Assembly: GCA_937136395.1 (NCBI GenBank)
Contig: CAKZOI010000035.1
Coordinates: 88,225 to 112,224, forward strand
DNA: 24,000 nt
Source of the DNA: an uncultured Opitutia bacterium
GTDB lineage: Bacteria > Verrucomicrobiota > Verrucomicrobiia > Opitutales > Coraliomargaritaceae
Direction of reading: 5' to 3'
Shown: positions 3,185 through 24,000 of the stretch, one piece after another
Numbering within the stretch: the stretch's first letter is position 1
How the letters are laid out: the number at the start of each line of letters is the position of its first letter
The notes under the pieces: generated by a model
Databases searched by the model: none
The model's input: the letters and a program-made list of their open reading frames with translations, nothing else
Told to the model about the DNA's origin: nothing
Program-made: the position numbers and the translations under genes

Positions 3185-3259
3185 GGTGCTTAGTAAGTCG
3201 CGATAATTCGATGTCGCAATCTTTTTGCATATTTACAAATAGTCCTCATATTGACGCGA

Positions 3260-4678
3260 ATGCGCCATATCATTCTACCTATTGTTATTATTGCCTGTGT
3301 CTCTAGTCACACATCTGCTCAAAACCGGATCGGGACTGGAGAGGTTGATAAGCTATATAAGTCGACCTGTGCTAGTTGTCATGGTGAGGACCTTAAAGGT
3401 GGATTGGGCGGTTCATTACTGACGATCGATACATGGAAGCAGGTCGGTAAGACCACGAGTTTTTTGGACTATGTTAAAGAGGGTAACCTAGAGATGGGTA
3501 TGCCAGCATTTGGAGGCGCTTTGTCCGACCCGCAAATTCGGTCGCTCGAAATCTATATTGATGAAATGCGCCAAAGCGCCGCCCGTGATGGTGCCACTTT
3601 GGTTGAGGCGCACGATGGAGTGTATTCGGCAGGTGGATACCAGTTTACGGTAGAGACGATTGTTGCTGAAACAAACAAGCCATGGTCGATTGCGTTTTTG
3701 CTCGATGGTAACGCGCTCGTTGCCGATCGTGATGGGGACTTACAGGTTTTGAAGGATGGCCAGTTGTCAAAACCAATAGCAAATACACCAGAGGTCTGGG
3801 CGAGAGGGCAGGGTGGCTTGCTCGAAGTCGCGCTGCATCCAGAGTATGCGAAGAATGGTTGGGTCTATCTATCCTTTTCCGAAAGTGGCGGTAAAGTGGC
3901 TGGAAAAGTCGCGGGTATGACAAAGGTCGTTCGCGGACGTATCGTCAATCATGAATGGACTGATCAAGAAGTGTTGTTTGAAACGCCACTTAAGTTCCAT
4001 CGCTCCTCTGGGGCGCATTTTGGTTCACGTTTTGTCTTCAAAGATGGCTATCTCTTTTTTGGTATTGGCGACCGTGGTGCCCAAGATATGGCGCAAGATC
4101 TCAACGCTCCGAATGGCAAGATTCATCGTATTCACGACGATGGGCGAGTGCCGAAGGATAACCCGTTTGTAGATGTCCCAAATGCCTATCCGACAATTTG
4201 GACCTACGGAAATCGCAATCCGCAAGGCTTAGACCTGCATCCTGCCACTGGTGAACTTTGGGAGTCCGAGCACGGTCCCCGCGGTGGTGATGAGATCAAT
4301 GTCATCGAGCGTGAGAACAATTACGGTTGGCCGGTCATCACCTACGGTATGAACTATAATGGCAAGCCGATCACGGCGATTACTGAGAAGGAGGGTATGG
4401 AGCAACCGAAGCATTATTGGACGCCTTCGATCGCTGTTTGTGGCATCGACTTTTACGAGGGTGACGTTTTCTCAGACTGGCAAAATGACTTACTCGTAGC
4501 TGGGTTGGCTTCTCAGGAGTTACACCGTTTGGAGGTAGAAGATGGCAAGGTCTTAAGCGATCAGATCATTCTGCATGGTATCGGTCGTATACGTGACGTG
4601 GCAAGTGGACCTGATGGGTTCATCTATCTCTTGCTTGATCGCCCTGGGAAAATAGTGCGCTTAGTCCCAGTTCAATAG
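3260..4678 (+). CDS. PQQ-dependent (soluble glucose/sorbosone dehydrogenase-type, GSDH beta-propeller) dehydrogenase with an N-terminal c-type cytochrome domain and signal peptide
   Basis: The heme-binding motif CASCHG lies near the N-terminus, after a signal-like MRHIILPIVIIACVSSHTSAQ. GSDH-family motifs follow: NGKIHRIHDDGRVPKDNPF, YGNRNPQGL, HGPRGGDEIN and NYGWP. The track ORF begins at a TTG at 3251. I prefer the ATG at 3260. Confidence 0.85.
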   Translation: MRHIILPIVIIACVSSHTSAQNRIGTGEVDKLYKSTCASCHGEDLKGGLGGSLLTIDTWKQVGKTTSFLDYVKEGNLEMGMPAFGGALSDPQIRSLEIYIDEMRQSAARDGATLVEAHDGVYSAGGYQFTVETIVAETNKPWSIAFLLDGNALVADRDGDLQVLKDGQLSKPIANTPEVWARGQGGLLEVALHPEYAKNGWVYLSFSESGGKVAGKVAGMTKVVRGRIVNHEWTDQEVLFETPLKFHRSSGAHFGSRFVFKDGYLFFGIGDRGAQDMAQDLNAPNGKIHRIHDDGRVPKDNPFVDVPNAYPTIWTYGNRNPQGLDLHPATGELWESEHGPRGGDEINVIERENNYGWPVITYGMNYNGKPITAITEKEGMEQPKHYWTPSIAVCGIDFYEGDVFSDWQNDLLVAGLASQELHRLEVEDGKVLSDQIILHGIGRIRDVASGPDGFIYLLLDRPGKIVRLVPVQ

Positions 4679-9614: not shown

Positions 9615-10979
9615 TTAGGTGTAAAGGTCTTCAGGGACGCGTTCGATGAATTCTTCGATATACTTCGTTGTGGCTTTACCCTCGCGGAAGATGGGGTCGC
9701 GAATGATTGCGCGCGAGAAAGGAATATTGGTTTTGATGCCTCGGATGATGTATTCGCCGAGTGCGCGATCCATGCGGTCCATTGCGAGTTCACGGGTCTT
9801 GCCGAAGGTCATGACTTTGGCGATCATACTGTCATAGTATGGTGGGATGGTATAGCCGCCATAACAGTGAGAGTCGATACGCACGCCGTGGCCACCAGGA
9901 GCATAGTAGAGTGAGATTTCTCCGGGGCAGGGGGCAAAGTTGCGGCCTGGGTCTTCAGCGCAAACACGGCATTCGATGCAGTGCTTGGTGATTTTAATGT
10001 CTTTTTGCTGGTAGCTAAGCTTTTGACCGCTGGCTACAAGTAGTTGCTCTTTAACAAGGTCGACACCGGTAACTTCTTCGGTGACGCCGTGCTCGACTTG
10101 AATACGGGTATTCATCTCGATGAAAAAGTAATCGCCATTGCCGTCGACGAGGAACTCTACGGTGCCAGCGCCTTCGTAATTGACTGATTTTGCGAGTTTG
10201 ACCGCATCTTCACCCATTTTTTTACGAATCTTATCGGAAATGAACGGTGAGGGCGCTTCTTCGATCACTTTTTGGTGACGGCGCTGGATCGAGCAGTCTC
10301 GTTCACCAAGGTGAATCACGTTGCCGTGTTGATCGCCCATGAGCTGGATTTCGATGTGGCGTGGTGCCTCAAGGAAGCGCTCCAGGTAAACCGCGCCGTT
10401 GCCAAATGCTTTTTCGGCTTCGTTACGGGCATTGTTATATTCTTTGACGAATGCGACAGCGTTGTTTGCGGTGCGCATACCTTTGCCACCGCCGCCAGCG
10501 ACTGCTTTAATGATTACCGGAAAACCGATTTTCTTAGCGGTTTCAATAGCGTCTGTTTCGTTATCAACGGTGCCATCACTTCCAGGAATGACGGGAACGT
10601 TTGCCTTAACCGCCATGTCACGAGCCTTTGCTTTGTCGCCAAAATTGATGATGGCTTCAGGGCCGGGGCCGATAAACTTGATATTGCACTTAGCGCATTG
10701 TTCAGCGAAATCAGCATTTTCTGCAAGAAAGCCGTAGCCAGGGTGGATGGCATCGACATCCGCGATTTCGGCGGCTGCAATAATACGATCAGCTTTCAGG
10801 TAACTAAGGTTGCCGGCTGGTGGGCCGATGCAAATCGCTTCGTCCGCGAGTTGCACGTGAAGTGATTGCTCGTCGGCCTCGGAGTAAACGGCGAGCGTTT
10901 TGATTCCAAGTTCGTTACAAGCACGGACGATGCGGAGCGCAATTTCGCCCCGATTTGCGATAAGAACTTTTTTAATCAT
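9615..10979 (-). CDS. accC: Acetyl-CoA carboxylase, biotin carboxylase subunit
   Basis: 454 aa. It begins [36 protein letters not shown], carries the ATP-grasp motifs GGGGKGMR and [14 protein letters not shown], and has a full-length AccC architecture. Confidence 0.97.
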
Positions 10980-10988
10980 TCAGAAAAC

Positions 10989-11453
10989 TTAGGCCGTTTT
11001 AACTTTGAAGAGTGGTTGGCCGTATTCGACAGCTTCACCATTTTCGATGAGCACTTCTGTGACGGTGCCACCGATTTCAGCTTGGATCTCATTCATCACC
11101 TTCATGGCTTCGATGATGCATACGATGGAGTCTGCAGTGACTTTATCGCCAACCTTTACGAAGGCAGGGCTTTCTGGCGAACTCGCGCTGTAGAAAGTGC
11201 CAACCATGGGTGATTTTACGATTTCGACGCCTTTTTCCTCTACAGGTGCAGCAGCGGCTGCGGGAGCCGCAGTAGGCGCAGCGGTTGCGGGCGCGGCAAC
11301 AGGTGCGGGAGCTGCTGCTTGGATGATTTGAGGTGCCACGTCGCCGTTCTTGCGAGTGAGGCGGAGCTTGAAGCCTTCCTCCTCTAGTTCAAATTCGGAG
11401 AGCTCCGAACGTTTCATCAAGTCGACTACTTGCTTTATTGCTTTTAGGTCCAA
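10989..11453 (-). CDS. accB: Acetyl-CoA carboxylase, biotin carboxyl carrier protein
   Basis: 154 aa. It has an Ala/Pro-rich linker and a C-terminal biotinyl domain with the EAMKVMNEI biotinylation motif. It lies 9 nt upstream of accC. Confidence 0.95.
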
Positions 11454-11743
11454 GGTGTTTCCTTTGTTAGGCGTTAATAAGTGAAGTGAGATCTTGTATT
11501 TCCGATCCAGAGGATCTGTATGCGAAAATAGTTATAGAGGTATCTAAGTGTAGCTTTTCAGAAGGTGCAATGCCTTTGTTGCCTATTTGGTTTCGCTTTG
11601 AACGCGCATTTTTGGTGTTCTCGTCGCGGAACTCGATTTTCTGCCAGTTTTTCTTTCTTGCTCGATTTAGTGATGCGTTACTCAATTATTCCCACGGTCG
11701 CTCTACTGGAAACTGTCTTTCATCTACAAGCTGTCTTCATTCT
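11454..11743. promoter_or_regulatory. Divergent intergenic region between accB (minus) and the acyl-tailoring operon (plus); presumed to hold both promoters
   Basis: This is 290 nt without a credible ORF. The track ORF 11486-12064 only becomes protein-like at about 11744. A near-direct repeat CTGTCTTTCATCTA / CTGTCTTCATTCTA sits at 11713-11744. I could not identify -35/-10 elements with confidence. Confidence 0.35.
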
Positions 11744-12064
11744 ATGCCGAAGGCCGAAATGCTCATTATGCCTAACTCTGAAGAAGTTGAAACTCTCGTG
11801 ATCGAATCAGTGCGCTTATTAGCCGAAGATTTTGATCTAGCCGCCTTGCAGCAGCCAAACTCGGCATCTGCCCTGTATGGAAATGAAGGAGTGCTCGATA
11901 GTATGGCACTGGTTAATTTGATCGCGGACATTGAGGATGCAGTTTCTGAGAAGTTCGGCGCTTCAATTACACTCGCCAATGAGAAAGCTATGAGCGCGCG
12001 CCAGTCTCCGTTCTTAAATGTAAAAACCCTTAGTCAAGCGGTTTTAGAGAGAATCGGCTCATGA
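11744..12064 (+). CDS. Acyl carrier protein-like phosphopantetheine-binding protein (ACP1)
   Basis: The C-terminal roughly 100 aa of ORF 11486-12064 read EEVETLVIESVRLLAEDFDL...GVLDSMALVNLIADIEDAVSEKFG. The DSM/L serine motif sits at the usual helix-2 position. Candidate starts are ATG 11744, 11759 and 11768. The stop overlaps the next gene's start (ATGA at 12061-12064). Confidence 0.7.
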   Translation: MPKAEMLIMPNSEEVETLVIESVRLLAEDFDLAALQQPNSASALYGNEGVLDSMALVNLIADIEDAVSEKFGASITLANEKAMSARQSPFLNVKTLSQAVLERIGS

Positions 12065-12756
12065 AACAGATTGTTATCACAGGCACGCGTAAGGGGATCG
12101 GTCGATCTTTAGCGGAACATTATTTAGCTTTGGGCTGGGGCGTGATTGGTTGCAGTCGTGGCGAGCCCTCAATTGAGCATGCTCAGTATCGCCACTATTC
12201 AGTGGACGTGAGCGATGAGGTGGCGGTCATTGAAATGGCGCGTGATGTTAAGCGACAATTCGGTGAGGTGGATGTTTTGTTAAACAATGCGGGCATCGCT
12301 TCGATGAACCACTGTTTGCTAACTCCTGGTTCGACAGTAAATAGTATATTGCAGACGAACGTTGTCGGCACATTTTTATTTTGCCGCGAGTTTGCAAAGC
12401 TCATGCGCAAGGCCGAGCAACCGCGAATCGTGAACTTTACAACCGTGGCACACCCGTTGAATTTGGAAGGTGAGGCGATTTACGCGGCTAGTAAGGCAGC
12501 AGTAGAGAGCTTGACTCGAATTATGGCGCGTGAATTGGCAGAGCTGGGCATTACCGTAAATGCGGTCGGCCCCACCCCTGTGTTGACAGATCTGATTAAG
12601 GGCGTCTCCTCCGAAAAAATGGATGCCTTGCTAGCGCGGCAAGCGATTCCACGTTATGGAAAGCCAGAAGATGTGATCAATGCTGTCGATTTCTTCATCC
12701 GTCCAGAAAGTGATTTTATTACGGGGCAAGTGCTTTATTTAGGTGGAGTGACGTAA
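12061..12756 (+). CDS. Short-chain dehydrogenase/reductase, FabG-like (SDR1)
   Basis: 231 aa. It has the cofactor motif ITGTRKGIGRSLA, NNAG, and the catalytic YAASK (YxxxK). Confidence 0.85.
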   Translation: MKQIVITGTRKGIGRSLAEHYLALGWGVIGCSRGEPSIEHAQYRHYSVDVSDEVAVIEMARDVKRQFGEVDVLLNNAGIASMNHCLLTPGSTVNSILQTNVVGTFLFCREFAKLMRKAEQPRIVNFTTVAHPLNLEGEAIYAASKAAVESLTRIMARELAELGITVNAVGPTPVLTDLIKGVSSEKMDALLARQAIPRYGKPEDVINAVDFFIRPESDFITGQVLYLGGVT

Positions 12757-12759
12757 GTT

Positions 12760-14088
12760 GTGAGCTGGATTGATCGCCAGTTTGCTGAGTTTGAGGATCG
12801 AGTAGCGTGCCATGAGGCCGGACGCCTGTGGACATATTCTGACTTTCTTGCTGAGGTCGATCGCTCTACCGAATTATTGGCTCCAGCAGTAGGCTCAAAG
12901 CCAGTCGTGATTGCAATTCATATGCAGGGCACGCTATTAGCGCTCGCAGCGATGCTTGCCGTGGCACGTCTAAAACAAGTTGCCCTGCCGCTTTCACCTC
13001 AGGCGACTTTAGCTGAACGGCTTGAGCAGCAGGGCATTGCTGGTGCATGCTTTGTGTTGACTGAGCAGGGGCTGGATTCGACGCAACTCAGTAGGGCGTC
13101 ATCAAAATGGTTTGGCGAGCTGGCGAAACGTGAGCATGCAGGCCTCGTCTTGTTTAGTAGCGGCACCAGCGGTGAGCCGAAGGGGATGCTGCATGATTTA
13201 GATGCTTTGCTAGACCGCTATCGCACGGTGCGCCCCCGCGGAGACCGGACTGTGCAGTTGCTATTGGCCGATCATATCGGTGGGCTTGATTCGGCGTTTC
13301 GCACTTTATTTGCGGGTTCGACCTTGGTTGTGCCAGAAGCCCGCACTGCAGTCGCAGTGGGTGAAGCGATTCAGCAGCATCGAGTGAATATACTGCCTGC
13401 ATCGCCGACGTTTTTAAATCTCATGTTGCTCGCGCATGTGCCAGAGAAATTTGATTGTTCGAGCCTCGAGGTCGTTGCATACGGTGCGGAGCCGATGCCG
13501 GAAGGACTGCTCGCTCGATTGATCGAGGCATTTTCCAAGGTTTCACTTCAGCAGAAGTTTGGCACGAGTGAGACGGGTGCCATTCGTATCAAGAGCCAGT
13601 GCACCGGTAGTTTGTTTTTCAAAATCGAGGATTCTGGTGTGGAGTGGCGTATCGAGAATGAGGAGTTGTGGCTGAAGACCAGTTCACGGATATTGGGCTA
13701 CTTAAATGCGGACGAGTCATCCTTGGAGGCCGATGGTTGGTATCGAACTGGCGACCTGGTTGAGGTGGCGGATGGTGGTTACATACGAATCATTGGGCGC
13801 CGTAGTGAACTCATTAATATCGGTGGTCAAAAAGTGCATCCCGCTGAGATTGAGCAGGTGGTCGCCGAGATTGATGGCGTTGATGCGTGCGCTGTCTTTG
13901 GTCAGCCCGCTCCCGTAACGGGGAGTATGGTGGCATGTGTGATTGTGACGACTGTCGATCGAGACCTGCGCTCATGGAAGCGCATGGTGCGGAACCATTG
14001 TCGGGGTAAATTAGCTGATTGGAAAATCCCTGTATCCATTGAATTGCGCGATGAGTTGTCGCTGACTGATCGTTTGAAGCGCGCATAG
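12760..14088 (+). CDS. Adenylate-forming acyl ligase (AMP-binding superfamily; likely acyl-ACP or acyl-CoA synthetase)
   Basis: 442 aa. Motifs are A3 [12 protein letters not shown]5-like FGTSETG, A7 YRTGD and A8 [20 protein letters not shown]. The GTG start lies 3 nt after the SDR1 stop. Confidence 0.85.
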
Positions 14089-14146
14089 CATTCATCTCCC
14101 TAAAATGGGCTTTCACTTTTGTGTGATCCTATGCATCGTCACTCTT

Positions 14147-15229
14147 ATGGCAAAATCCAGTTTTAACCATGTTCAAATCGGCGGGGTCGTTACCTGTGTG
14201 CCGCCGCTTGAAAAATGTATCGATGATGAATTGGAGTTGTTCGGTGGGAATGCGAAGCAAATCGCCCGTTTAAAGAAAACGATAGGCTTGGATCGCCGCC
14301 GCGTCGTGGAGTCCGGGACGACGGCTGCGGATCTCTCTGAAACCGCTGCAAAGCGCTTGCTTGAGCAGGCTGGGCTCACGCCCGATGCAGTGGATGCGCT
14401 CATTTTTGTGACGCAGACACCCGATTACGCCCAGCCATGTAATGCTGCAGTTCTACATGGGCGTTTAGATTTACCTAAAAGCTGCGCGGCTTTAGACGTC
14501 AACTTAGGCTGTTCTGGTTATGTGTATGGGCTTTGGTTGGCGCACATGATGGTCAGCTCAGGTGGTTGTGAACGTGTCTTGTTGCTTGCGGGCGATACGA
14601 TCAGTCGAATCGTGAATCCCAAAGATCGCGCTGTGGCACCTTTGTTTGGCGATGGCGGTAGTGCGACTTTAGTTCAGCGCAGTGAGTGCGCGAGTGCTGC
14701 GTGGTTCAGTCTCGAAACAGATGGTAAAGGTTTTGATAAGTTGATCGTTCCTGCTGGTGGTCAGCGCGCGCCAAGTTCTACGGAGACTCAAGTTGAAGTC
14801 ACCGATGAGGCGGGTAATATTCGGTGCCAGGAAAACCTCTTTATGGATGGTGCGGAGATCTTTAACTTCTCTATCGTCGAGGAACCGAAAGCGGTGCGCG
14901 AATTAGTCGAGTATGCGGGTCTTGATATGGACGCGGTGGATTATTTTGTCTTTCACCAAGCGAATCGCTATATATTGACCAATATCGCGAAGCGCCTAAA
15001 AATCGATTTAGCAAAAGTTCCGATGCAAACTGTCGAACGCTATGGGAATCAGAGTTCAGCGTCGATCCCATCGGCGATGTGCGGTGAGTTGCATGATACT
15101 TTACGTAGTGCTGATTCAACGCGAGTTTTATTGTCAGGATTTGGCGTTGGGCTCTCTTGGGCGAGCGTTATTTTGGATATTGCCGAACTGCCCGTTTGTG
15201 AAATCATTGAATATTCTAGCTGTAATTAG
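14147..15229 (+). CDS. 3-oxoacyl-ACP synthase III (KASIII/FabH-like)
   Basis: All three catalytic triad contexts are present: Cys in [10 protein letters not shown], His in [11 protein letters not shown] and Asn in [10 protein letters not shown]. The track ORF starts at 14105, but the extra [14 protein letters not shown] is atypical. I prefer the ATG at 14147. Confidence 0.85.
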
Positions 15230-15279
15230 AACCTTGTTAGGCGCGCCGTGAGCAGGTATTAGTCTTTTAAATACACCCC

Positions 15280-15504
15280 ATGAGTTTAGAAAAATTTGTA
15301 GAAGATTTCGAAGAGGCCGTCGAAGATGTCGAGCCTGGGTCATTAACCGCTCTCACAAAGTATCGAGAACTTGAAGCCTGGGATTCGCTAGCAGTTTTGA
15401 CTGTCATCGCAATGGTCGATGCAGAATACGATGTGCGCCTTAAAGCAGAAATGCTGAAAGCTAACGACACCTTAGAAGCGCTGTATGCACAAGTGTGTGG
15501 ATAA
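15280..15504 (+). CDS. Acyl carrier protein (ACP2)
   Basis: 74 aa and acidic, with the serine attachment motif in LEAWDSLAVLTVIAMVDAEYDV. Confidence 0.75.
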   Translation: MSLEKFVEDFEEAVEDVEPGSLTALTKYRELEAWDSLAVLTVIAMVDAEYDVRLKAEMLKANDTLEALYAQVCG

Positions 15505-15510
15505 ATTTAA

Positions 15511-16251
15511 ATGATGACGACTGCAGCCAAATTCGAGAATCAACAGATACTAGTTGTTGGTGCGACTGGTGGGCTCGGGGCAGCGATTGCGCGTCAACTG
15601 CAAGAGGAGGGTGCGCGTTTAATTCTAGCTGGTCGTGATACGGAAAAGTTGTCGGCCTTGGTCAAGGATTTGGAGTGCGACTCAGTTGCCGTGGACTTGG
15701 CAAATGCCGAAGGCCGCTTTCAGTTGGTAGATGCAGTCGATGCGCTAGATGGCCTCGTCTATGCCGCCGGCGTGGCACCTATAGCGCCCGTGCGCTATCT
15801 CAAAGATGCAGATGTAGACAGTTGCTTGAACCTAAATGCTGCCGCGCCCTGGTTACTTGTTCGCGATTTACTGAAAAAGAAAAAGTTAAATTCAGGCGCG
15901 TCGATTGTGTGCTTATCGTCAGTTGCTGCGGGCCGAGGCACTGCTGGGTATTCGGCATATTCCGCTAGCAAAGCTGCACTGGAGGCATTTGTGCGCTGCC
16001 TAGCGCTTGAGATCGCACCGAAAGGAATGCGAGCAAATTGCATCGCACCAGGTATGATTGAGACCGACATGACCGAAGCAGCTGCGGAGCGAATTTCCGA
16101 TGAAGCGCTCGCCGAACATTTAAAAGCTTATCCACTTGGAGTTGGAAAGCCTTCTGATGTGGCTGAGGCGACTTCATTCTTACTATCAGAAGCGTCCCGT
16201 TGGGTGACGGGGATTACCCTGTCAGTAGATGGTGGCTATTCGATCCACTAG
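15511..16251 (+). CDS. Short-chain dehydrogenase/reductase, FabG-like (SDR2)
   Basis: 246 aa. It has VVGATGGLGAAIARQL, LSSVAAG and the catalytic YSASKAALEAF. Confidence 0.85.
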   Translation: MMTTAAKFENQQILVVGATGGLGAAIARQLQEEGARLILAGRDTEKLSALVKDLECDSVAVDLANAEGRFQLVDAVDALDGLVYAAGVAPIAPVRYLKDADVDSCLNLNAAAPWLLVRDLLKKKKLNSGASIVCLSSVAAGRGTAGYSAYSASKAALEAFVRCLALEIAPKGMRANCIAPGMIETDMTEAAAERISDEALAEHLKAYPLGVGKPSDVAEATSFLLSEASRWVTGITLSVDGGYSIH

Positions 16252-16274
16252 TTGTCTTTAAGTTCTGATCCATT

Positions 16275-16907
16275 ATGAAAAAACTGATTATTGTAGGCGC
16301 AGGAGGATTCGGTCGCGAAGTGTATGCGTGGGCAAAGCAGCATCCAGATTGTGGCCAGGTTTGGGAGCTCGCTGGTTTTCTTGACGATGATTTATCGGTT
16401 CTCGATGGCTATGATTATTCGGTCAATGTGCTTGGGCCTATTGAAGGGTATATGCCCGCGGAAGATGAAGTCTTTGTTTGTGCGATCGGTGCTCCTGAAA
16501 TCAAAAAAAAGGTTTGTGAGTCTCTGCTAGCGAATGCGGCGACTTTTATCAATTTGGTCCATCCATCGGTTATCCTTGGTGAGAATATACGCTTGGGCGT
16601 CGGTGTTGTGCTTTGCCCGCGAGTGACGTTAACTGCGGATATTTCGATCGGCGACTTCGTGGCGATAAATTGTCACAGCAGTGCGGGGCACGATGTCACG
16701 ATCGGTGCTTGGGCGACGATTAGCGGGCACTGTGATTTGACTGGGAATACCAGCTATGGCACGGGCGCGTTTCTAGCGACAGGTGTGCGGATTGCGCCGA
16801 GTAAATCTGTCGGCAAGCTCGCTTATGTGGGTGCTGGTTCTGTCGTGATCCGCTCAGTCAAGGATGGTCAAAAAGTCTTTGGTAACCCCGCTCGCGTGAT
16901 CGCTTAG
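16275..16907 (+). CDS. NeuD/PglD-family left-handed beta-helix acyl/acetyltransferase
   Basis: 210 aa. The N-terminal Rossmann-like motif is MKKLIIVGAGGFGREVYAWA. LAGFLDDD follows, then hexapeptide-repeat-like segments (IGDFVAINCHSSAGHDVTIGAWATISGHCDLTGNTSYGTGAFLATGVRI). Confidence 0.8.
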   Translation: MKKLIIVGAGGFGREVYAWAKQHPDCGQVWELAGFLDDDLSVLDGYDYSVNVLGPIEGYMPAEDEVFVCAIGAPEIKKKVCESLLANAATFINLVHPSVILGENIRLGVGVVLCPRVTLTADISIGDFVAINCHSSAGHDVTIGAWATISGHCDLTGNTSYGTGAFLATGVRIAPSKSVGKLAYVGAGSVVIRSVKDGQKVFGNPARVIA

Positions 16908-17602
16908 AGAGCGCTGCTTTGCTCGCTCTCAGAAAGACCGAGCTCAGATAGGCTTGCGAGGATCTCTTCAAAACCTGCGGTTTTTTTGAGTTGTTCGAGG
17001 CTCCGATTGCTTGATAGGCGAATGAAAAATTGCTCTTGGCGCAAGTCGAGTCCGTGCTCCTTGATATCGATGAGTGCACCGAAAATATTGTGACCGCCTT
17101 GCTGCTTGTAGCCAAAGGCGGTGCCACCTACTAAGTGCCAAAAGTAGACATTTTGTGCAGTGCCGTTCTTTTCATACACGCCAAATTCTGCGGGTTGGAA
17201 TTCGGTATCTCCATTTTGAAAGGGCACGCTATATTCGCGGTCGGTGCAGGTCCATCCGTTTTGCACCCAGCAAGTGTCGGGGGTGTGTGCGCCTGCCCAG
17301 CGATAGGATGCTTTGCCTGGGCTCCAGTAGGCGATGTATAGACCAACGAAAGCATCGCCTTTTTCGAAGACGCGAAAGAGCGCATCGTCAAAATTCAGGA
17401 ACTCGCTGATACGGGCGCTGGATTCTGGCGACTCCGCCATATCTAGGTCATTAATTTTCCATCCACTGAGTTCACTTGGGACGATCTCGGCAATTTGTTG
17501 GTGCAAGGTCGCTTCTGGGGGAGGCACAATGGTGAAGTAGCCACGCAGGCCGATGGCGGAAGCGAGCGTGATGAAGCCAACGATAAATAGGATCTTTTTC
17601 AT
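16904..17602 (-). CDS. EpsI-family (exosortase-associated, DUF3485-like) protein
   Basis: It has an N-terminal TM/signal segment (MKKILFIVGFITLASAIG). It then shows the pattern I associate with EpsI: WK..D....E....L..DD...R.Y, followed by VGLYIAYW....ASYRWAGAHTPDTCWVQNGW and VYFWHLVGG. The ATG at 17600-17602 is preferred over the TTG at 17620. The stop codon overlaps the stop codon of the convergent NeuD-like gene. Confidence 0.6.
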   Translation of the reverse strand: MKKILFIVGFITLASAIGLRGYFTIVPPPEATLHQQIAEIVPSELSGWKINDLDMAESPESSARISEFLNFDDALFRVFEKGDAFVGLYIAYWSPGKASYRWAGAHTPDTCWVQNGWTCTDREYSVPFQNGDTEFQPAEFGVYEKNGTAQNVYFWHLVGGTAFGYKQQGGHNIFGALIDIKEHGLDLRQEQFFIRLSSNRSLEQLKKTAGFEEILASLSELGLSESEQSSAL

Positions 17603-17622
17603 AGCAAAGTGGAGAAGCAATA

Positions 17623-17773: not shown

Positions 17774-20293
17774 ATGTCTCATCGTTTATCCAGTCGTGTC
17801 TATAATCCTGCCGCTTTAGAGGTGTGGTTTAGCAATGTCGGGCTGGATTGGGAGCAGGCGTTTTCAAGGGAAGTCATACGTCGTGGACGCGAAATCTACC
17901 TAAAAGGACAGATCTCAGGAATCGAACTGGCGAAAGAGGATGCGATTGTGCACTGCAAGTTTGCCCGCAAAGATACCTGCTACGCAGTGATTGATTGGAC
18001 CTCTGATGGGCCAGAAGTGCGTTTTTCGGGAGAAGATCGTGACTTGGGGAAAGCCGTGGCTGTCGGCGGGCTTTATGAGATTGAGGAGCTGATTGCCGAC
18101 GAGATCACGCCAATTGCATATGAGCCAAGTGGCTCAGCAGAAGCGCTTCCCGATGCACCTCAGGATAGTGAAGCCGAGGTCGAAGTCGTTGAAGAGCGGC
18201 CCGAGCGTAAACTGACACCACGACTGGAGGGATCCCAATCAGGGCTGCGTTTGACTGCCTATTGGACCAACGCTGATTTTTCAAAGGAAGCTGCATTTCG
18301 CAGCGATGAGCAACCGCTGATGAGTCTTGAGCGTGAGGCATTGGTGCGCTTGGCAGGGCGCGCGAAAGAAGCCGGTTTCCAATTCAGACGCGATTCGAAC
18401 GATTATATACTGAGGGACTTTGAACGTATCGCGCCATTTTTTTCACATACACGGAAGCGCTGGGAAAGTATATTTGAATTTCTTGACCTTGATTATGAGG
18501 CGCAAGTCATGGCTGAAGGCGTGCGCCAAGTCAAAATTGTTGGACGAGTTGAGGCGGCTGAAGCGGAGACGATGCGAGTGGATTGGCGCTTCAAGTTGGG
18601 TAAGCGCTGGCTGGATCCAGAAGACGCTGAACGTATTGCAAAAGCAGGCCGCGGCACGCACATGGTGCCTGGTTTGGGGCTCGTGCGTATCCGTGACGAC
18701 CAATCGGCGGCTTTGGCAGAGTGGCGGGTGGCCGCGGCCAATCATTCCGAGGCGGCGCAAATCTGGCCACGTTATATGGTATTTTCACTTTTTGCGGAAA
18801 GGGGTGCGGAGCTAGATCTCGAAGAGGCATTGAAAGCATGGCGTGCGGCGACTGTTGAGCTCGTTGGCAAGCAAGCAGTCTTGCCCGACTTCTTGCGCCC
18901 TTACCAGGCTCAGGGCGTGCATTGGATGGCGAATTTGCGCAAGCAGGGCTGCCATGGTTTACTGGCGGATGAAATGGGTTTGGGTAAAACCTTGCAGGTG
19001 TTGACGCTGCTCGACGAGCACCCTTATGCAGATAAGAATAGTTTAATCGTCTGTCCGGCAAGTGTTGTTCCAGTCTGGGAGAGTGAAGCGAAAAAATGGT
19101 ATCCAAAATTGAATACGCAGATACTTGGAAGTGTTGTGAATTTTGAGAATAATGAAGTGTCGATGCCGACGCTGTGGATTGCTAGCTACACACAGTTACG
19201 CCGACATAAGCATCAACTTGAGCAAGTCGGCTTTGGCTATGCAGTTCTCGATGAAGCGCAACAGATCAAAAATCCCGACGCAAAAGTCACGCAAGCTTGT
19301 TGCGCGATTAAGGCTGAGTGTCGTCTAGCACTGACTGGAACGCCGATCGAGAATCGCTTGTTGGACTTGTGGACACTCTTTCGTTTTCTGATGCCTGGTT
19401 TGTTGGGCACACGTCGTCGCTTTGAGCATGCCATCGAGGCGGAGAATGCTGAGCTGCGAGCGAGCTTTGAGGACCGACTGCGTCAGCAGGTTGCTCCGTT
19501 TATCCTACGCCGGCAGAAAGATAAAGTCGGTAAAGATTTACCACCCAAGGTAGAGATGGACTTGATTTGTCCGATTACTGAGGTGCAAAAGCAGGTGTAT
19601 GAACAACTGTTATCTCGTGGCAAAGAAACGCTGGGCGACGACTTACAATCAGCGATGCAGACGCAGTCGATGAACTTCTTTACCTTGCTTACGCGATTGC
19701 GCCAAGCCTGCTGTGATCCTGGATTGATACCAGACGTTGACGCAGACCTGAGTCAAAGCGGGAAAGTACAGATGCTACTGACCCGCTTAGACGAAGGGCT
19801 TCAGGGGGATGGCGCGCGAAAGGTCGTTATATTTAGTCAGTTTTTACAATTGTTGAAGCGTTTGAAACCACTCATTCAAAAGGAGTTTCCGGAGGTCGCC
19901 TTGTTGGAGTTGAGCGGTGAGACTCGCAATCGAGCAAAGCCAGTAGAGACTTTCCAGAACACAAAGGGCCCTGCGGTGATTTTAGTCAGTTTACGCGCAG
20001 GCGGCACAGGCATTACACTGCACGCCGCGGATTATGTCTTTTTGCTCGATCCTTGGTGGAATCCCGCAGTGGAGAATCAGGCCGTCGATAGAGTGCACCG
20101 CATCGGTCAAGATCGCCGCGTTTTTGTCTATCGTATGATCACTCAAGGCACAATTGAAGAACGGATTCAGCATTTAAAAAAAGAGAAGCGTGAGCTCTTT
20201 GAAAATACACTTGGGCATTTAGGTAGTGCCAAAGATCTCGCAGAGCATTTTGGTGATCTCGAAGAATTGGCTAAGTTATTGCCACCAAAATAG
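17774..20293 (+). CDS. SNF2-family DNA-dependent ATPase/helicase with a bacterial SNF2-associated N-terminal region
   Basis: 839 aa. Helicase motifs are LRPYQAQGVHWM, LADEMGLGKTLQ (motif I), VLDEAQQIKN (DEAQ box), LTGTPIENRL and LDPWWNPAVENQAVDRVHRIGQ (motif VI). The roughly 370-aa N-terminal region precedes the ATPase core. Confidence 0.9.
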   Translation: MSHRLSSRVYNPAALEVWFSNVGLDWEQAFSREVIRRGREIYLKGQISGIELAKEDAIVHCKFARKDTCYAVIDWTSDGPEVRFSGEDRDLGKAVAVGGLYEIEELIADEITPIAYEPSGSAEALPDAPQDSEAEVEVVEERPERKLTPRLEGSQSGLRLTAYWTNADFSKEAAFRSDEQPLMSLEREALVRLAGRAKEAGFQFRRDSNDYILRDFERIAPFFSHTRKRWESIFEFLDLDYEAQVMAEGVRQVKIVGRVEAAEAETMRVDWRFKLGKRWLDPEDAERIAKAGRGTHMVPGLGLVRIRDDQSAALAEWRVAAANHSEAAQIWPRYMVFSLFAERGAELDLEEALKAWRAATVELVGKQAVLPDFLRPYQAQGVHWMANLRKQGCHGLLADEMGLGKTLQVLTLLDEHPYADKNSLIVCPASVVPVWESEAKKWYPKLNTQILGSVVNFENNEVSMPTLWIASYTQLRRHKHQLEQVGFGYAVLDEAQQIKNPDAKVTQACCAIKAECRLALTGTPIENRLLDLWTLFRFLMPGLLGTRRRFEHAIEAENAELRASFEDRLRQQVAPFILRRQKDKVGKDLPPKVEMDLICPITEVQKQVYEQLLSRGKETLGDDLQSAMQTQSMNFFTLLTRLRQACCDPGLIPDVDADLSQSGKVQMLLTRLDEGLQGDGARKVVIFSQFLQLLKRLKPLIQKEFPEVALLELSGETRNRAKPVETFQNTKGPAVILVSLRAGGTGITLHAADYVFLLDPWWNPAVENQAVDRVHRIGQDRRVFVYRMITQGTIEERIQHLKKEKRELFENTLGHLGSAKDLAEHFGDLEELAKLLPPK

Positions 20294-23447: not shown

Positions 23448-23960
23448 TTAGATCTCGCGAGAGTCGTCATCTTTTTTCGGGCCTTTTTTGTCGCCCTTTT
23501 TACCTTTGCGTTTTTCTGCCGCTGCTTTGAGTTCCTCCTTGGTGATTTCGCCGTCGCCGTTGCTATCGATTTCGTCGAAACGCTCTAGTAAGCGCTCTCC
23601 GGCTTCATCTTTTGAGAGAGAACCGTTACCATCGGTATCCATTTCATCGAATCGTTCACCCTTATCGCCACCTTTGCGGCGCTCGCGCATCTTCTTTTCA
23701 GCTTTTGCGAATTCCTTTTTAGTGATTTCACCGTCGCCGTCTGCATCGATCTTATCGAAGTGCTTTTTGAGTGGGCCTTTGGCTTCTTCTTTGGAAACGC
23801 CGCCGCTGTTATCAGTATCGAGGCGTTGAATGAGTTGCCCTGGGTTCGGGCGTTCGCCTCCTCTGCCTTCCCGTTCGCCGTCGCCGCTAGGCTTAGCTTG
23901 AGAGATTGCAGGGATGATTGCAGTGGCGATGAGTGCAAGTAGGATATTTTTTGTTTTCAT
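23448..23960 (-). CDS. Secreted EF-hand calcium-binding protein (four EF-hand loops in two duplicated halves)
   Basis: A signal peptide MKTKNILLALIATAIIPAISQA is followed by four DxDxDG-type loops: DTDNSGGVSKEE, DADGDGEITKKE, DTDGNGSLSKDE and DSNGDGEITKEE. The tail is Lys-rich. The ATG at 23958-23960 is preferred over the one at 23987. Confidence 0.8.
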   Translation of the reverse strand: MKTKNILLALIATAIIPAISQAKPSGDGEREGRGGERPNPGQLIQRLDTDNSGGVSKEEAKGPLKKHFDKIDADGDGEITKKEFAKAEKKMRERRKGGDKGERFDEMDTDGNGSLSKDEAGERLLERFDEIDSNGDGEITKEELKAAAEKRKGKKGDKKGPKKDDDSREI

Positions 23961-24000
23961 TATTTGTATTGGATTTGAATTTTTCATTACGCGGCGTCGT

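What the first reader, a model, noticed from the sequence alone, without database searches (positions are those of the whole stretch)
11744..16907. Seven-gene carrier-protein-dependent acyl-tailoring operon ending in a NeuD/PglD-type transferase (candidate uncharacterised N-acylation pathway)
Seen in the sequence: seven same-strand genes with gaps of -4 to 58 nt. The order is ACP1 (LDSMALV), SDR1, adenylate-forming ligase, KASIII with an intact Cys/His/Asn triad, ACP2 (WDSLAVL), SDR2, and a left-handed beta-helix transferase with the GAGGFGRE N-terminus of the NeuD/PglD family. The operon lacks a malonyl-CoA:ACP transacylase, dehydratase, enoyl reductase, thioesterase and PPTase. It therefore cannot run iterative fatty acid synthesis. 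Inference: the ligase loads a free acid onto a dedicated ACP. KASIII then performs one condensation with a malonyl unit on the other ACP, or alternatively shuttles the acyl group between ACPs, as some KASIII-like enzymes do. One or both SDRs reduce the 3-oxo group. The NeuD-like enzyme uses the resulting 3-oxo or 3-hydroxy acyl-ACP instead of acetyl-CoA to acylate an amine, most plausibly a nucleotide-linked amino sugar. Established precedents for this logic are the Vibrio cholerae O1 rfbKLMNO genes (ACP, ligase and acetyltransferase-like enzyme making the tetronate N-acyl group on perosamine) and the dedicated ACP plus AMP-ligase pair in exosortase A loci. I cannot match this exact gene set to a characterised pathway. 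No glycosyltransferase or aminotransferase lies in the window, so the acceptor is unknown.
Basis: partly seen in the sequence, partly recalled or inferred. Interest (0 to 1): 0.72.

Follow-up and report, generated by a model that had tools for sequence, protein, structure and literature searches.

The report
Sugar N-acyl side-chain synthesis cassette
Seven adjacent genes in a marine Verrucomicrobium most likely build a short hydroxylated acyl chain on dedicated carrier proteins and attach it to the amino group of an activated amino sugar of a surface glycan; this is a larger, modular version of a system already known from Pseudomonas syringae flagellin and Flavobacterium psychrophilum O-antigen.

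Summary
Seven co-oriented genes (11768-16907, gaps -4 to 58 nt) encode ACP1, a FabG-like SDR, an ANL ligase, a KASIII with a Cys/His/Asn triad, ACP2, a second FabG-like SDR and a NeuD/PglB/VioB-family transferase. The source is an uncultured marine Opitutales (Lentimonas-like) bacterium.

Comparison of about 100 related loci shows two modules rather than one fixed operon. KASIII-ACP2-(SDR2)-LbH matches the P. syringae viosamine island (vioS/acp/vioR/vioB, makes N-3-hydroxybutanoyl-viosamine) and F. psychrophilum wfpC-G (predicted 3,5-dihydroxyhexanoyl on Qui2NAc4N). ACP1-SDR1-ligase is a separate, widespread, uncharacterised triad. It also occurs alone behind a PglC-like sugar-phosphate transferase.

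Close relatives carry 7, 4 or 3 of the genes. In distant lineages the same seven families sit directly beside RmlA/RmlB/DegT or PglF-like/DegT genes. This supports a nucleotide-linked 4-amino-4,6-dideoxyhexose as acceptor.

An EpsI-like gene converges on the cassette in all ten full-flank loci of the clade; this is unexplained. Verdict: new variant of a known kind, moderate interest.

The parts
11454..11767 (.). Divergent intergenic region between accB and ACP1 (presumed promoters)
   Evidence: Conserved sequence blocks across 8 related loci. No Rfam match. Consensus scans found no promoter-like site on the + strand here; they found one - strand promoter-like site (11712-11685) and one weak + strand terminator-like hairpin at 11626-11644.
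11768..12064 (+). ACP1, a 98-aa stand-alone carrier protein of a family without its own Pfam/NCBIfam model. Ser45 (nt 11900-11902) sits in LDSMALV. It carries a conserved C-terminal motif LADEKAMSxxxSPF.
   Evidence: invariant Ser; weak DltC/ACP similarity; four-helix model, ACP-like fold matches; start codon; 1,639 clusters at 50% identity with E<=1e-3.
12061..12756 (+). SDR1, a FabG-like short-chain reductase (TGxxxGIG, YAASK)
   Evidence: It lies between ACP1 and the ligase in nearly every locus mapped where all three are present; in L176 a methyltransferase gene separates SDR1 from the ligase.
12760..14088 (+). Short (442 aa) ANL adenylate-forming ligase of the carboxylic-acid type. Motifs: [21 protein letters not shown], and C-terminal Lys440.
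   Evidence: No NCBIfam cut-off is reached. Best solved relative is FadD13 at only 100 bits.
14147..15229 (+). KASIII (FabH-like condensing enzyme) with Cys122/His270/Asn301
   Evidence: (best PDB match 4efi, 279 bits). It falls below the NCBIfam FabH cut-offs, so it is not a FabH equivalog.
15280..15504 (+). ACP2, a 74-aa carrier protein with Ser36 in WDSLAVL
   Evidence: (PF00550).
15511..16251 (+). SDR2, a FabG-like ketoreductase (GATGGLG, YSASK). It is dispensable in many relatives.
16275..16907 (+). NeuD/PglB/VioB-family left-handed beta-helix N-acyltransferase. It has the GAGGFGRE N-terminus, and His139 aligns with the VioB histidine.
   Evidence: TIGR03570 above cut-off; PglD_N; VioB 7txp, 114 bits.
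16904..17620 (-). EpsI-like (PF11984/DUF3485) membrane-anchored protein. It is convergent with the transferase gene and overlaps it by 4 nt. It is a conserved neighbour; its role is unknown.
   Evidence: 10 of 10 clade loci; also L125 and L136.
9615..11453 (-). accC-accB (biotin carboxylase and BCCP), a conserved divergent neighbour and a possible link to malonyl supply
   Evidence: 10 of 10 clade loci.

Best explanation
This is a carrier-protein-dependent side-chain synthesis cassette. It makes a short hydroxylated acyl group and N-acylates a nucleotide-linked 4-amino-4,6-dideoxyhexose destined for a surface glycan. The acceptor is either a bacillosamine-type UDP-sugar or a viosamine-type dTDP-sugar. 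The cassette consists of two modules.

Module B is KASIII-ACP2-SDR2-LbH. It is the counterpart of P. syringae vioS-acp-vioR-vioB.
- KASIII condenses a starter with malonyl-ACP2. The malonyl unit would be loaded by the housekeeping FabD (inferred).
- SDR2 reduces the 3-oxo group.
- The VioB-like transferase moves the acyl group from the phosphopantetheine arm to the sugar's C4 amine.

Module A is ACP1-SDR1-ligase.
- The ligase adenylates a free short oxo- or hydroxy-acid and loads it on ACP1.
- The FabG-like SDR1 sets its hydroxyl group.
- The resulting acyl-ACP1 serves as KASIII starter in place of acetyl-CoA.
- The most economical chemistry is acetoacetate or 3-hydroxybutyrate giving 3-hydroxybutanoyl-ACP1, then 5-hydroxy-3-oxohexanoyl-ACP2, then a 3,5-dihydroxyhexanoyl-type amide. 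This acyl group is known on Qui2NAc4N in F. psychrophilum.

Relatives with fewer genes would make shorter or less reduced groups (3-hydroxybutanoyl, acetoacetyl). That gives strain-level glycan diversity.

Shown here: the gene content, catalytic motifs, modular recurrence and sugar-gene neighbourhoods. Inferred: the substrates, the order of steps, acyl-ACP use by the transferase, and the product.
For: The same seven families recur together in distant lineages, in identical or permuted order:
- L133: identical order, Campylobacterota-like.
- L117: LbH-KAS-ACP2-SDR2-ACP1-SDR1-LIG.
- Also L116, L120, L122, L136, L143 and L159.

Sugar genes lie directly adjacent in those loci:
- L133: RmlB, RmlA, RmlC, RmlD and DegT immediately upstream; GT2, NeuB and CTP_transf_3 downstream.
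- L117: RmlB-RmlA-DegT-LbH.
- L136: Bac_transf, then the cassette, then DegT plus a PglF-like Polysacc_synt_2.
- L013, L015, L090 and L091: Bac_transf-ACP1-SDR1-LIG.

Other support:
- The transferase's best solved relative is VioB.
- Literature: vioB and vioR mutants lose the N-(3-hydroxy-1-oxobutyl) viosamine (PMC3927599). wfpC-G is predicted to make a 3,5-dihydroxyhexanoyl group that is transferred from ACP by a PglD homologue (PMC6519341).
- No terminator-like site lies inside the operon.
- The 6 full-flank loci with a second KASIII lack the ligase module, and the 6 full-flank non-clade loci with the ligase module have a single KASIII. This is compatible with the ligase module and a second KASIII being alternative starter sources.
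Against: - No dehydratase, aminotransferase, glycosyltransferase or phosphoglycosyl transferase lies in the window or within about 9 kb upstream and 3 kb downstream of it. The acceptor pathway of this genome is therefore unseen.
- Modules A and B occur independently in close relatives, so sequential coupling is not proven.
- L116, L134 and L139 have both the ligase module and two KASIIIs. The 'alternative starter' logic is therefore not strict.
- The ligase substrate cannot be read from the sequence.
- All solved relatives of the transferase use acyl-CoA, not acyl-ACP.
- KASIII is unusually conserved (70% identity to Coraliomargarita, against 55% for the ligase) and sits beside accBC. This could point to a more central role.
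Confidence: 0.68

Rival explanations
1. The two modules are functionally independent. KASIII-ACP2-SDR2-LbH makes an ordinary 3-hydroxybutanoyl amide from acetyl-CoA plus malonyl-ACP, as in P. syringae. ACP1-SDR1-ligase makes a different acyl group for another transferase or acceptor. Their adjacency reflects a shared glycan locus, not a shared pathway.
For: Module A occurs alone behind Bac_transf in L015, L090 and L091. It occurs with other transferases in L016, L017 and L176. Module B occurs alone in L100, L105-L113 and L162-L173. In L094 the two modules are divergent transcription units.
Against: The two modules are adjacent in at least nine distinct arrangements across distant lineages. The window holds only one transferase for two ACPs. 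In L013 the orthologous LbH pairs with module A without any KASIII, so this transferase subfamily can plausibly take module A products.
Confidence: 0.17
2. The KASIII-like enzyme does not condense. It shuttles the acyl group from ACP1 to ACP2 (or to the transferase), as some KASIII-like acyltransferases do. The product then keeps the chain length loaded by the ligase.
For: There are two ACPs but no malonyl transferase in the operon. SDR2 is dispensable in many relatives.
Against: The Cys/His/Asn triad that drives decarboxylative condensation is invariant. Most relatives have KASIII without module A, so in those there would be nothing to shuttle. FabD from primary metabolism can supply malonyl-ACP (established knowledge).
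Confidence: 0.06
3. The cassette serves a lipid or an exosortase-related process rather than a nucleotide sugar. One option is acylation of a membrane lipid or lipid A-like amine. Another is acylation of a molecule handled by the EpsI-like protein and an exosortase.
For: accB-accC and an EpsI-like gene flank the cassette in 10 of 10 clade loci, and EpsI also appears in L125 and L136. KASIII is highly conserved. No sugar genes lie near the window.
Against: The transferase is a NeuD/PglB/VioB-family member with a PglD_N nucleotide-sugar domain, not LpxA/LpxD. Homologous cassettes sit inside sugar pathways. There is no exosortase gene in the window. Module content varies between close strains, which is unusual for a core lipid pathway.
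Confidence: 0.07

Closest known systems
Pseudomonas syringae pv. tabaci viosamine island (vioA, vioS, vioB, vioR, acp, vioM, vioT) and the P. aeruginosa PAK flagellin glycosylation island orfA-E (PMC3927599)
   Same: It has KASIII (vioS), a small ACP, a 3-oxoacyl-ACP reductase (vioR) and a VioB-type LbH transferase clustered together. vioB and vioR mutants lose the N-(3-hydroxy-1-oxobutyl) group on viosamine. The window's transferase is most similar to a solved VioB.
   Different: It has no ligase, no second ACP and no second SDR. The sugar genes (vioA) and the glycosyltransferase lie in the same island, whereas here they are absent from the window. No direct sequence comparison with the Pseudomonas proteins was possible with these tools.
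Flavobacterium psychrophilum O-polysaccharide genes wfpC-wfpG (PMC6519341)
   Same: It has two KAS genes, an ACP, a ketoreductase and a PglD homologue. These are predicted to build a 3,5-dihydroxyhexanoyl group on ACP and transfer it to UDP-Qui2NAc4N. Architectures of this type (KAS-ACP-KAS-SDR-LbH, with Bac_transf) appear among the window KASIII's relatives (L116, L141, L142, L160, L174).
   Different: It uses a second KAS instead of the ligase-ACP1-SDR1 module. The function is predicted from the glycan structure, not tested biochemically.
Aeromonas polar-flagellin glycosylation island group II, orf1-orf3 plus luxE/luxC (PMC7874193)
   Same: It has ACP, 3-oxoacyl-ACP reductase and AMP-dependent synthetase in that order, next to nonulosonic-acid genes. 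This is the same order as ACP1-SDR1-ligase here.
   Different: It is followed by LuxE/LuxC, not by KASIII/ACP/LbH. It is uncharacterised. Homology to the window proteins was not tested because no sequences were available.
   Same: An ACP, an AMP-ligase and an LbH acetyltransferase-like enzyme make an unusual N-acyl group on a 4-amino-4,6-dideoxyhexose.
   Different: As recalled, it has no KASIII and instead uses alcohol dehydrogenase and LuxC-like reductase chemistry. It was not compared by sequence here.
Campylobacter PglD / Neisseria PglB-ATD / Acinetobacter VioB and WeeI (solved NeuD-family N-acetyltransferases)
   Same: They share the fold family, the PglD_N domain and an aligned histidine (shown for VioB only). 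Their acceptors are nucleotide-linked 4-amino-4,6-dideoxyhexoses.
   Different: These enzymes use acetyl-CoA. Here the gene is always embedded with dedicated ACPs.

Membership tests
NeuD/PglB/VioB sugar N-acyltransferase family (TIGR03570) | Whole-protein score above the curated cut-off, plus the PglD N-terminal domain and hexapeptide beta-helix | tested here: met
   174.3 bits against a cut-off of 160.8. PglD_N 45.8 bits and Hexapep.
NeuD/PglB/VioB sugar N-acyltransferase family (TIGR03570) | Catalytic histidine in the beta-helix aligned with solved members | tested here: met
   His139 (SAGHDV) aligns with the His of VioB 7txp in the phmmer alignment.
NeuD/PglB/VioB sugar N-acyltransferase family (TIGR03570) | Acyl donor is acetyl-CoA | not testable with these tools
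   Only gene context (two dedicated ACPs) argues for an acyl-ACP donor. The pocket was not analysed.
FabH / KASIII condensing enzymes | ACP_syn_III N- and C-terminal domains and the Cys-His-Asn triad | tested here: met
   PF08545 and PF08541. Cys122, His270 and Asn301 are invariant in 10 orthologues.
FabH / KASIII condensing enzymes | Equivalog of housekeeping FabH (NCBIfam cut-offs) | tested here: not met
   NF009519 303 bits against 436; NF006829 238.9 against 249; TIGR00747 218 against 292.
ACP-dependent N-acyl side-chain cassettes of 4-amino-4,6-dideoxyhexoses (viosamine island / wfpC-G type) | KASIII, small ACP, FabG-like reductase and PglD/VioB-type transferase clustered together | tested here: met
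   Genes at 14147-16907. Literature definitions in PMC3927599 and PMC6519341.
ACP-dependent N-acyl side-chain cassettes of 4-amino-4,6-dideoxyhexoses (viosamine island / wfpC-G type) | Linked 4,6-dehydratase and DegT-type aminotransferase that supply the amino sugar | tested here: inconclusive
   Absent from the window and from flanks reaching about 9 kb upstream and 3 kb downstream. Present beside homologous cassettes in L133, L117 and L136. The rest of this genome was not seen.
ACP-dependent N-acyl side-chain cassettes of 4-amino-4,6-dideoxyhexoses (viosamine island / wfpC-G type) | An N-acyl (hydroxyacyl) amino sugar is present in the organism's glycan | not testable with these tools
   The organism is uncultured and no glycan data exist.
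ANL adenylate-forming enzymes | Core motifs A3, A5, A7 and A8 and the A10 lysine | tested here: met
   [37 protein letters not shown] and Lys440 are all invariant in 12 orthologues. PF00501 and PF13193.
ANL adenylate-forming enzymes | Membership of a named subfamily (FadD, MenE, an exosortase-A-associated ligase, etc.) | tested here: not met
   The best NCBIfam score is 172 bits against a cut-off of 476. None of the 25 best families listed reaches its cut-off.
Phosphopantetheine carrier proteins | PP-binding profile match and the conserved DS serine | tested here: met
   ACP2: PF00550 23.0 bits against 20.8. The Ser is invariant.
Phosphopantetheine carrier proteins | The same criteria applied to ACP1 | tested here: inconclusive
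   No Pfam or NCBIfam hit at 1e-3. The Ser is invariant in 40 representatives. 26 of 40 members hit the DltC model weakly. The profile against PDB gives E=0.009 to an ACP. The AF2 model has pLDDT 89.8 with ACP-like top fold matches, but Foldseek E>0.3.
PEP-CTERM / exosortase system | EpsI-family protein | tested here: met
   PF11984 54.9 bits against 26.1. It is below the NCBIfam EpsI cut-offs (31 against 42.8).
PEP-CTERM / exosortase system | An exosortase (EpsH/Xrt) gene in the locus | tested here: not met
   No exosortase lies in the window or its flanks.

The most novel reading that the evidence does not exclude
The ACP1-FabG-like-ligase triad is an unrecognised, widespread 'salvage starter' module. 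The ACP1 family alone spans 1,639 clusters at 50% identity and has no curated model. The triad would feed free short oxo- or hydroxy-acids into carrier-protein chemistry on sugars. Combined with a KASIII it would give polyketide-like dihydroxyacyl decorations. Gain and loss of the module would drive strain-level surface-glycan diversity in abundant marine Verrucomicrobia. In addition, the invariant pairing with an orphan EpsI-like protein would mean that EpsI-type proteins, so far linked only to exosortases, handle or recognise an N-acylated bacillosamine-type glycan.
Probability: 0.2. Interest if true: 0.65.

Novelty: new variant of a known kind. Interest (0 to 1): 0.42.

Why it matters
N-acyl decorations on amino sugars set serotype, phage sensitivity and immune recognition of bacterial surfaces. 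Yet the enzymology that builds acyl groups other than acetyl is almost untested. Only mutant data (P. syringae) and predictions (F. psychrophilum) were found here.

This locus adds a defined, testable extension: a ligase, carrier protein and reductase starter module coupled to a KASIII. It also provides natural 7-, 4- and 3-gene variants in closely related marine Opitutales, which predict distinct acyl masses.

It also flags an unannotated carrier-protein family and a recurrent, unexplained link to an EpsI-like protein. It does not reveal a new kind of system.

Tried and rejected
- Exact-sequence look-ups failed for KASIII (both start codons), the EF-hand protein, and the Coraliomargarita ligase and KASIII proteins.
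- The genome-collection scan with the ligase alignment was limited by its two peptide patterns. It returned mostly unrelated ANL ligases below 31% identity; only L009-L018 were informative.
- Literature searches on '3-hydroxybutanoyl + ACP', 'exosortase + ACP + EpsI' and Cj1303/Cj1307 gave nothing relevant. The Arora 2001 PNAS paper on the PAK island is not held. I could therefore not verify my recollection that the C. jejuni Cj1298-Cj1308 region and PAK orfH-M hold similar genes.
- Two further searches found no biochemical characterisation of a ligase-ACP-SDR plus KASIII route.
- The 200-aa protein next to DegT in Aliarcobacter cryaerophilus (L176) is not similar to the window's LbH.
- No Rfam family matched in the window.
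- I considered an amino-acid-activating, DltA-like role for the ligase because ACP1 weakly resembles DltC. I rejected it because the A4 region has the acyl-CoA-synthetase-type His (DHIGG) rather than the amino-acid Asp motif (inference from established ANL motifs), and because fatty-acid and MenE-type models score best.
- I considered housekeeping FabH for the KASIII. I rejected it as the leading reading because of the dedicated ACP and transferase, the sub-threshold FabH scores, and variable module content.

Full report
**Observation**

The window carries seven co-oriented genes between 11768 and 16907. The gaps are -4, 3, 58, 50, 6 and 23 nt.

Profile searches assign the genes as follows:
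- SDR1 (12061-12756) and SDR2 (15511-16251) are classical short-chain reductases.
- The 442-aa protein at 12760-14088 is an AMP-binding (ANL) enzyme.
- The protein at 14147-15229 is a KASIII.
- The 74-aa protein at 15280-15504 is a PP-binding carrier protein.
- The 210-aa protein at 16275-16907 belongs to the NeuD/PglB/VioB family: TIGR03570 at 174 bits against a cut-off of 160.8, plus the PglD_N domain.

Both SDRs are most similar to solved FabG 3-oxoacyl-ACP reductases. KASIII Cys122, His270 and Asn301 are invariant in ten orthologues. The ligase has all ANL core motifs and the C-terminal lysine.

ACP1 has no Pfam or NCBIfam hit, but several lines mark it as a carrier protein:
- Its DS serine is invariant in 40 family representatives.
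- 26 of 40 representatives weakly hit the DltC model.
- A confident AlphaFold model (pLDDT 89.8) is a four-helix bundle. Its best PDB fold matches are acyl carrier proteins, although at weak E-values.

Two small corrections apply. ACP1 most likely starts at 11768, because the upstream ATGs at 11744 and 11759 are interrupted by stop codons in relatives. KASIII most likely starts at 14147.

The window holds no malonyl transferase, dehydratase, enoyl reductase, thioesterase, PPTase, glycosyltransferase or aminotransferase. No terminator-like site lies inside the operon.

**Source and surroundings**

The ligase and KASIII are closest to proteins of Lentimonas and other Opitutales MAGs. The ligase is 82% identical to its Lentimonas sp. 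homologue and the KASIII 88%; they are 55% and 70% identical to their Coraliomargarita homologues. The identical locus occurs on 17 marine metagenome contigs.

The neighbours are housekeeping genes: TlyA, MscS, RsmJ, HemW, Asp23/AmaP, accC-accB divergent upstream, a Snf2 helicase, FolK and an ABC-F protein. The flanks that could be reached beyond the window are housekeeping too.

The one non-housekeeping neighbour is an EpsI-like gene (PF11984) at 16904-17620. It is convergent with the transferase gene and overlaps it by 4 nt.

**The cassette is modular**

I mapped the window proteins onto loci fetched with the ligase and with KASIII. This shows two modules.

Within the marine Opitutales clade, recognisable by accCB on one side and EpsI on the other, I found four architectures:
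- The full seven genes: L096, L097, L099, L101 and L103, plus L007 and L010 from the ligase-anchored searches. L098 and L144 show the same order but are cut before the last genes.
- KASIII-ACP2-SDR2-LbH only: L100, L105, L106, L115.
- KASIII-ACP2-LbH only: L107-L113, L119.
- A variant with ligase-SDR1-ACP1 inverted into a divergent unit and no SDR2: L094, L104.

Among the ten clade loci with at least 4.5 kb of flank on both sides, all have LbH and EpsI, five have SDR2, and four have the ligase module.

In other Opitutales the triad ACP1-SDR1-ligase stands alone, directly behind a small PglC-like sugar-phosphate transferase (Bac_transf): L015, L090 and L091. In L013 the same arrangement converges on an orthologous LbH (269 bits) plus an ACP2-like gene, inside a cluster with a sulfotransferase, GT4 and methyltransferase.

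Outside the phylum, the triad sits next to other hexapeptide transferases (L016; L017 from Cereibacter). It also sits inside an O-antigen-like locus of Aliarcobacter cryaerophilus next to a DegT aminotransferase. The order ACP1-SDR1-ligase held in every locus mapped; in the A. cryaerophilus locus a methyltransferase gene is inserted between SDR1 and the ligase.

**The acceptor**

In distant lineages (KASIII 42-61% identical) the same seven families recur together in identical or permuted order: L133, L117, L116, L120, L122, L136, L143, L159. There they lie beside sugar genes:
- L133 (Campylobacterota-like) reads Ugd, RmlB, RmlA, RmlC, RmlD, ABC transporter, DegT, then the seven genes in the window's order, then GT2, NeuB and CTP_transf_3.
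- L117 reads RmlB, RmlA, DegT, LbH, KASIII, ACP2, SDR2, ACP1, SDR1, ligase.
- L136 has Bac_transf, then the cassette, then LbH and EpsI on the opposite strand, then DegT and a PglF-like membrane dehydratase.

These are the pathways to dTDP-viosamine-type and UDP-bacillosamine-type 4-amino-4,6-dideoxyhexoses.

The window transferase's best solved relative is VioB (7txp, 114 bits). It is followed by WeeI-like 4m9c, PerB, PglB-ATD and PglD, all of which N-acetylate such sugars.

For the window organism I favour a bacillosamine-type UDP-sugar. The reason is the Bac_transf and PglF-like links in the L136 cassette, whose taxon is unassigned, and the Bac_transf link in Opitutales loci. This is inference; the genes are not in view.

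**Known precedents**

The P. syringae pv. tabaci viosamine island contains vioA, vioS (KASIII), vioB, vioR (3-oxoacyl-ACP reductase), acp, vioM and vioT. It makes dTDP-N-(3-hydroxy-1-oxobutyl)-2-O-methylviosamine for flagellin. vioB and vioR mutants lack the modified sugar, and all seven ORFs have homologues in the P. aeruginosa PAK island (PMC3927599).

In F. psychrophilum, wfpC and wfpE (KAS), wfpD (ACP), wfpF (ketoreductase) and wfpG (PglD homologue) are predicted to build 3,5-dihydroxyhexanoyl on ACP. They would then transfer it to UDP-Qui2NAc4N (PMC6519341).

Aeromonas group II flagellin glycosylation islands carry ACP, 3-oxoacyl-ACP reductase and AMP-dependent synthetase in the window's order, uncharacterised (PMC7874193).

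I found no paper that tests a ligase-ACP-SDR plus KASIII route.

**Proposed mechanism**

Shown: the gene content, the motifs, the modular recurrence and the sugar context.

Inferred:
1. The ligase loads a short oxo- or hydroxy-acid on ACP1.
2. The FabG-like SDR1 reduces it.
3. KASIII extends acyl-ACP1 with malonyl-ACP2.
4. SDR2 reduces the new 3-oxo group.
5. The VioB-like enzyme transfers the chain to the C4 amine.

Acetoacetate or 3-hydroxybutyrate as the input would give a 3,5-dihydroxyhexanoyl-type amide. The four-gene variants would give 3-hydroxybutanoyl and the three-gene variants acetoacetyl.

Among full-flank loci, those with a second KASIII lack the ligase module and vice versa. This fits alternative starter supply. 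However, L116, L134 and L139 carry both.

The rivals are independent modules, KASIII acting as an ACP-to-ACP shuttle, and a lipid or exosortase-related acceptor. They are listed with their tests in the rival explanations.

**Unexplained**

The EpsI-like gene accompanies the cassette in all ten full-flank clade loci. It is usually followed by a Wzy_C/TPR protein and a 286-aa protein, and it also appears in the more distant L125 and L136. accB-accC adjacency is equally constant. KASIII is much more conserved than the ligase.

**Verdict**

The finding is real and coherent. This is a new, modular variant of a known kind of glycan-tailoring system, with an uncharacterised starter module.

Noticed in passing
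window 16904-16907; L007 14119-14122; L094 11986-11993: The stop codons of the transferase gene and the convergent EpsI-like gene overlap by 4 nt (8 nt in L094). This leaves no room for terminators between the two genes. The overlap is conserved across relatives that are 54-70% identical.
   Followed up: partly
window 17774-20293: An 839-aa Snf2-family helicase sits where relatives (L007, L094, L099, L101, L103) carry a Wzy_C/TPR membrane protein and a 286-aa protein after EpsI. Its best NCBIfam hits are 'pilus expression-regulating Snf2 helicase' at 345 bits and ZorD at 250 bits, both far below cut-off. This suggests a local replacement or rearrangement in this lineage; L105 and L106 share it.
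   Followed up: partly
window 11454-11767: The accB-ACP1 divergent intergenic region contains blocks conserved across 8 loci. Examples are TAAGTnnAGCTTT, GGTGCAATnnCTTTGTTnCnTATTTG and TTTTTCTTTCTTGCTCGA...TTACTCAATT. They are presumably promoter or regulatory elements. There is no Rfam match.
   Followed up: partly
window 11768-12064 and the P0361-P0510 representatives: ACP1 belongs to a family of roughly 100-aa proteins (1,639 clusters at 50% identity with E<=1e-3). The family has an invariant Ser and a conserved LADEKAMSxxxSPF motif. It is not captured by any Pfam or NCBIfam model at normal thresholds.
   Followed up: partly
L093 (Rhizobium sp. T136 plasmid pT136b, 394799-402422): An SDR plus a homologous ligase (44% identity) lie with two small hypothetical proteins, a CmlS-like FADH2-dependent halogenase, an alpha/beta hydrolase and a GNAT. 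The SDR-ligase pair therefore also occurs in what looks like a small-molecule pathway. Bacillus cereus-group megaplasmids carry the ligase next to a 105-aa hypothetical protein.
   Followed up: no
L015 7022-8227 (-), L090 6413-7585 (-), L091 7088-8293 (-), L013 5212-6381 (-): A 390-402-aa protein with no Pfam hit lies divergently upstream of Bac_transf-ACP1-SDR1-ligase in four Opitutales loci. In three of the four (L013, L015, L090) a methyltransferase lies next to it. It is a conserved unknown partner of the triad.
   Followed up: no
L176 9226-9996: In Aliarcobacter cryaerophilus a methyltransferase gene is inserted between SDR1 and the ligase. The triad lies after DegT inside an O-antigen/capsule-like locus that lacks KASIII.
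   Followed up: no
window 23448-23987 (-): A 179-aa protein has EF-hand repeats with weak hits to XopAW-type calcium-binding effectors and to lanmodulin. All hits are below cut-off.
   Followed up: no
window 3251-4678: A 475-aa protein fuses a cytochrome c domain to a PQQ-dependent glucose/sorbosone dehydrogenase-like domain.
   Followed up: no
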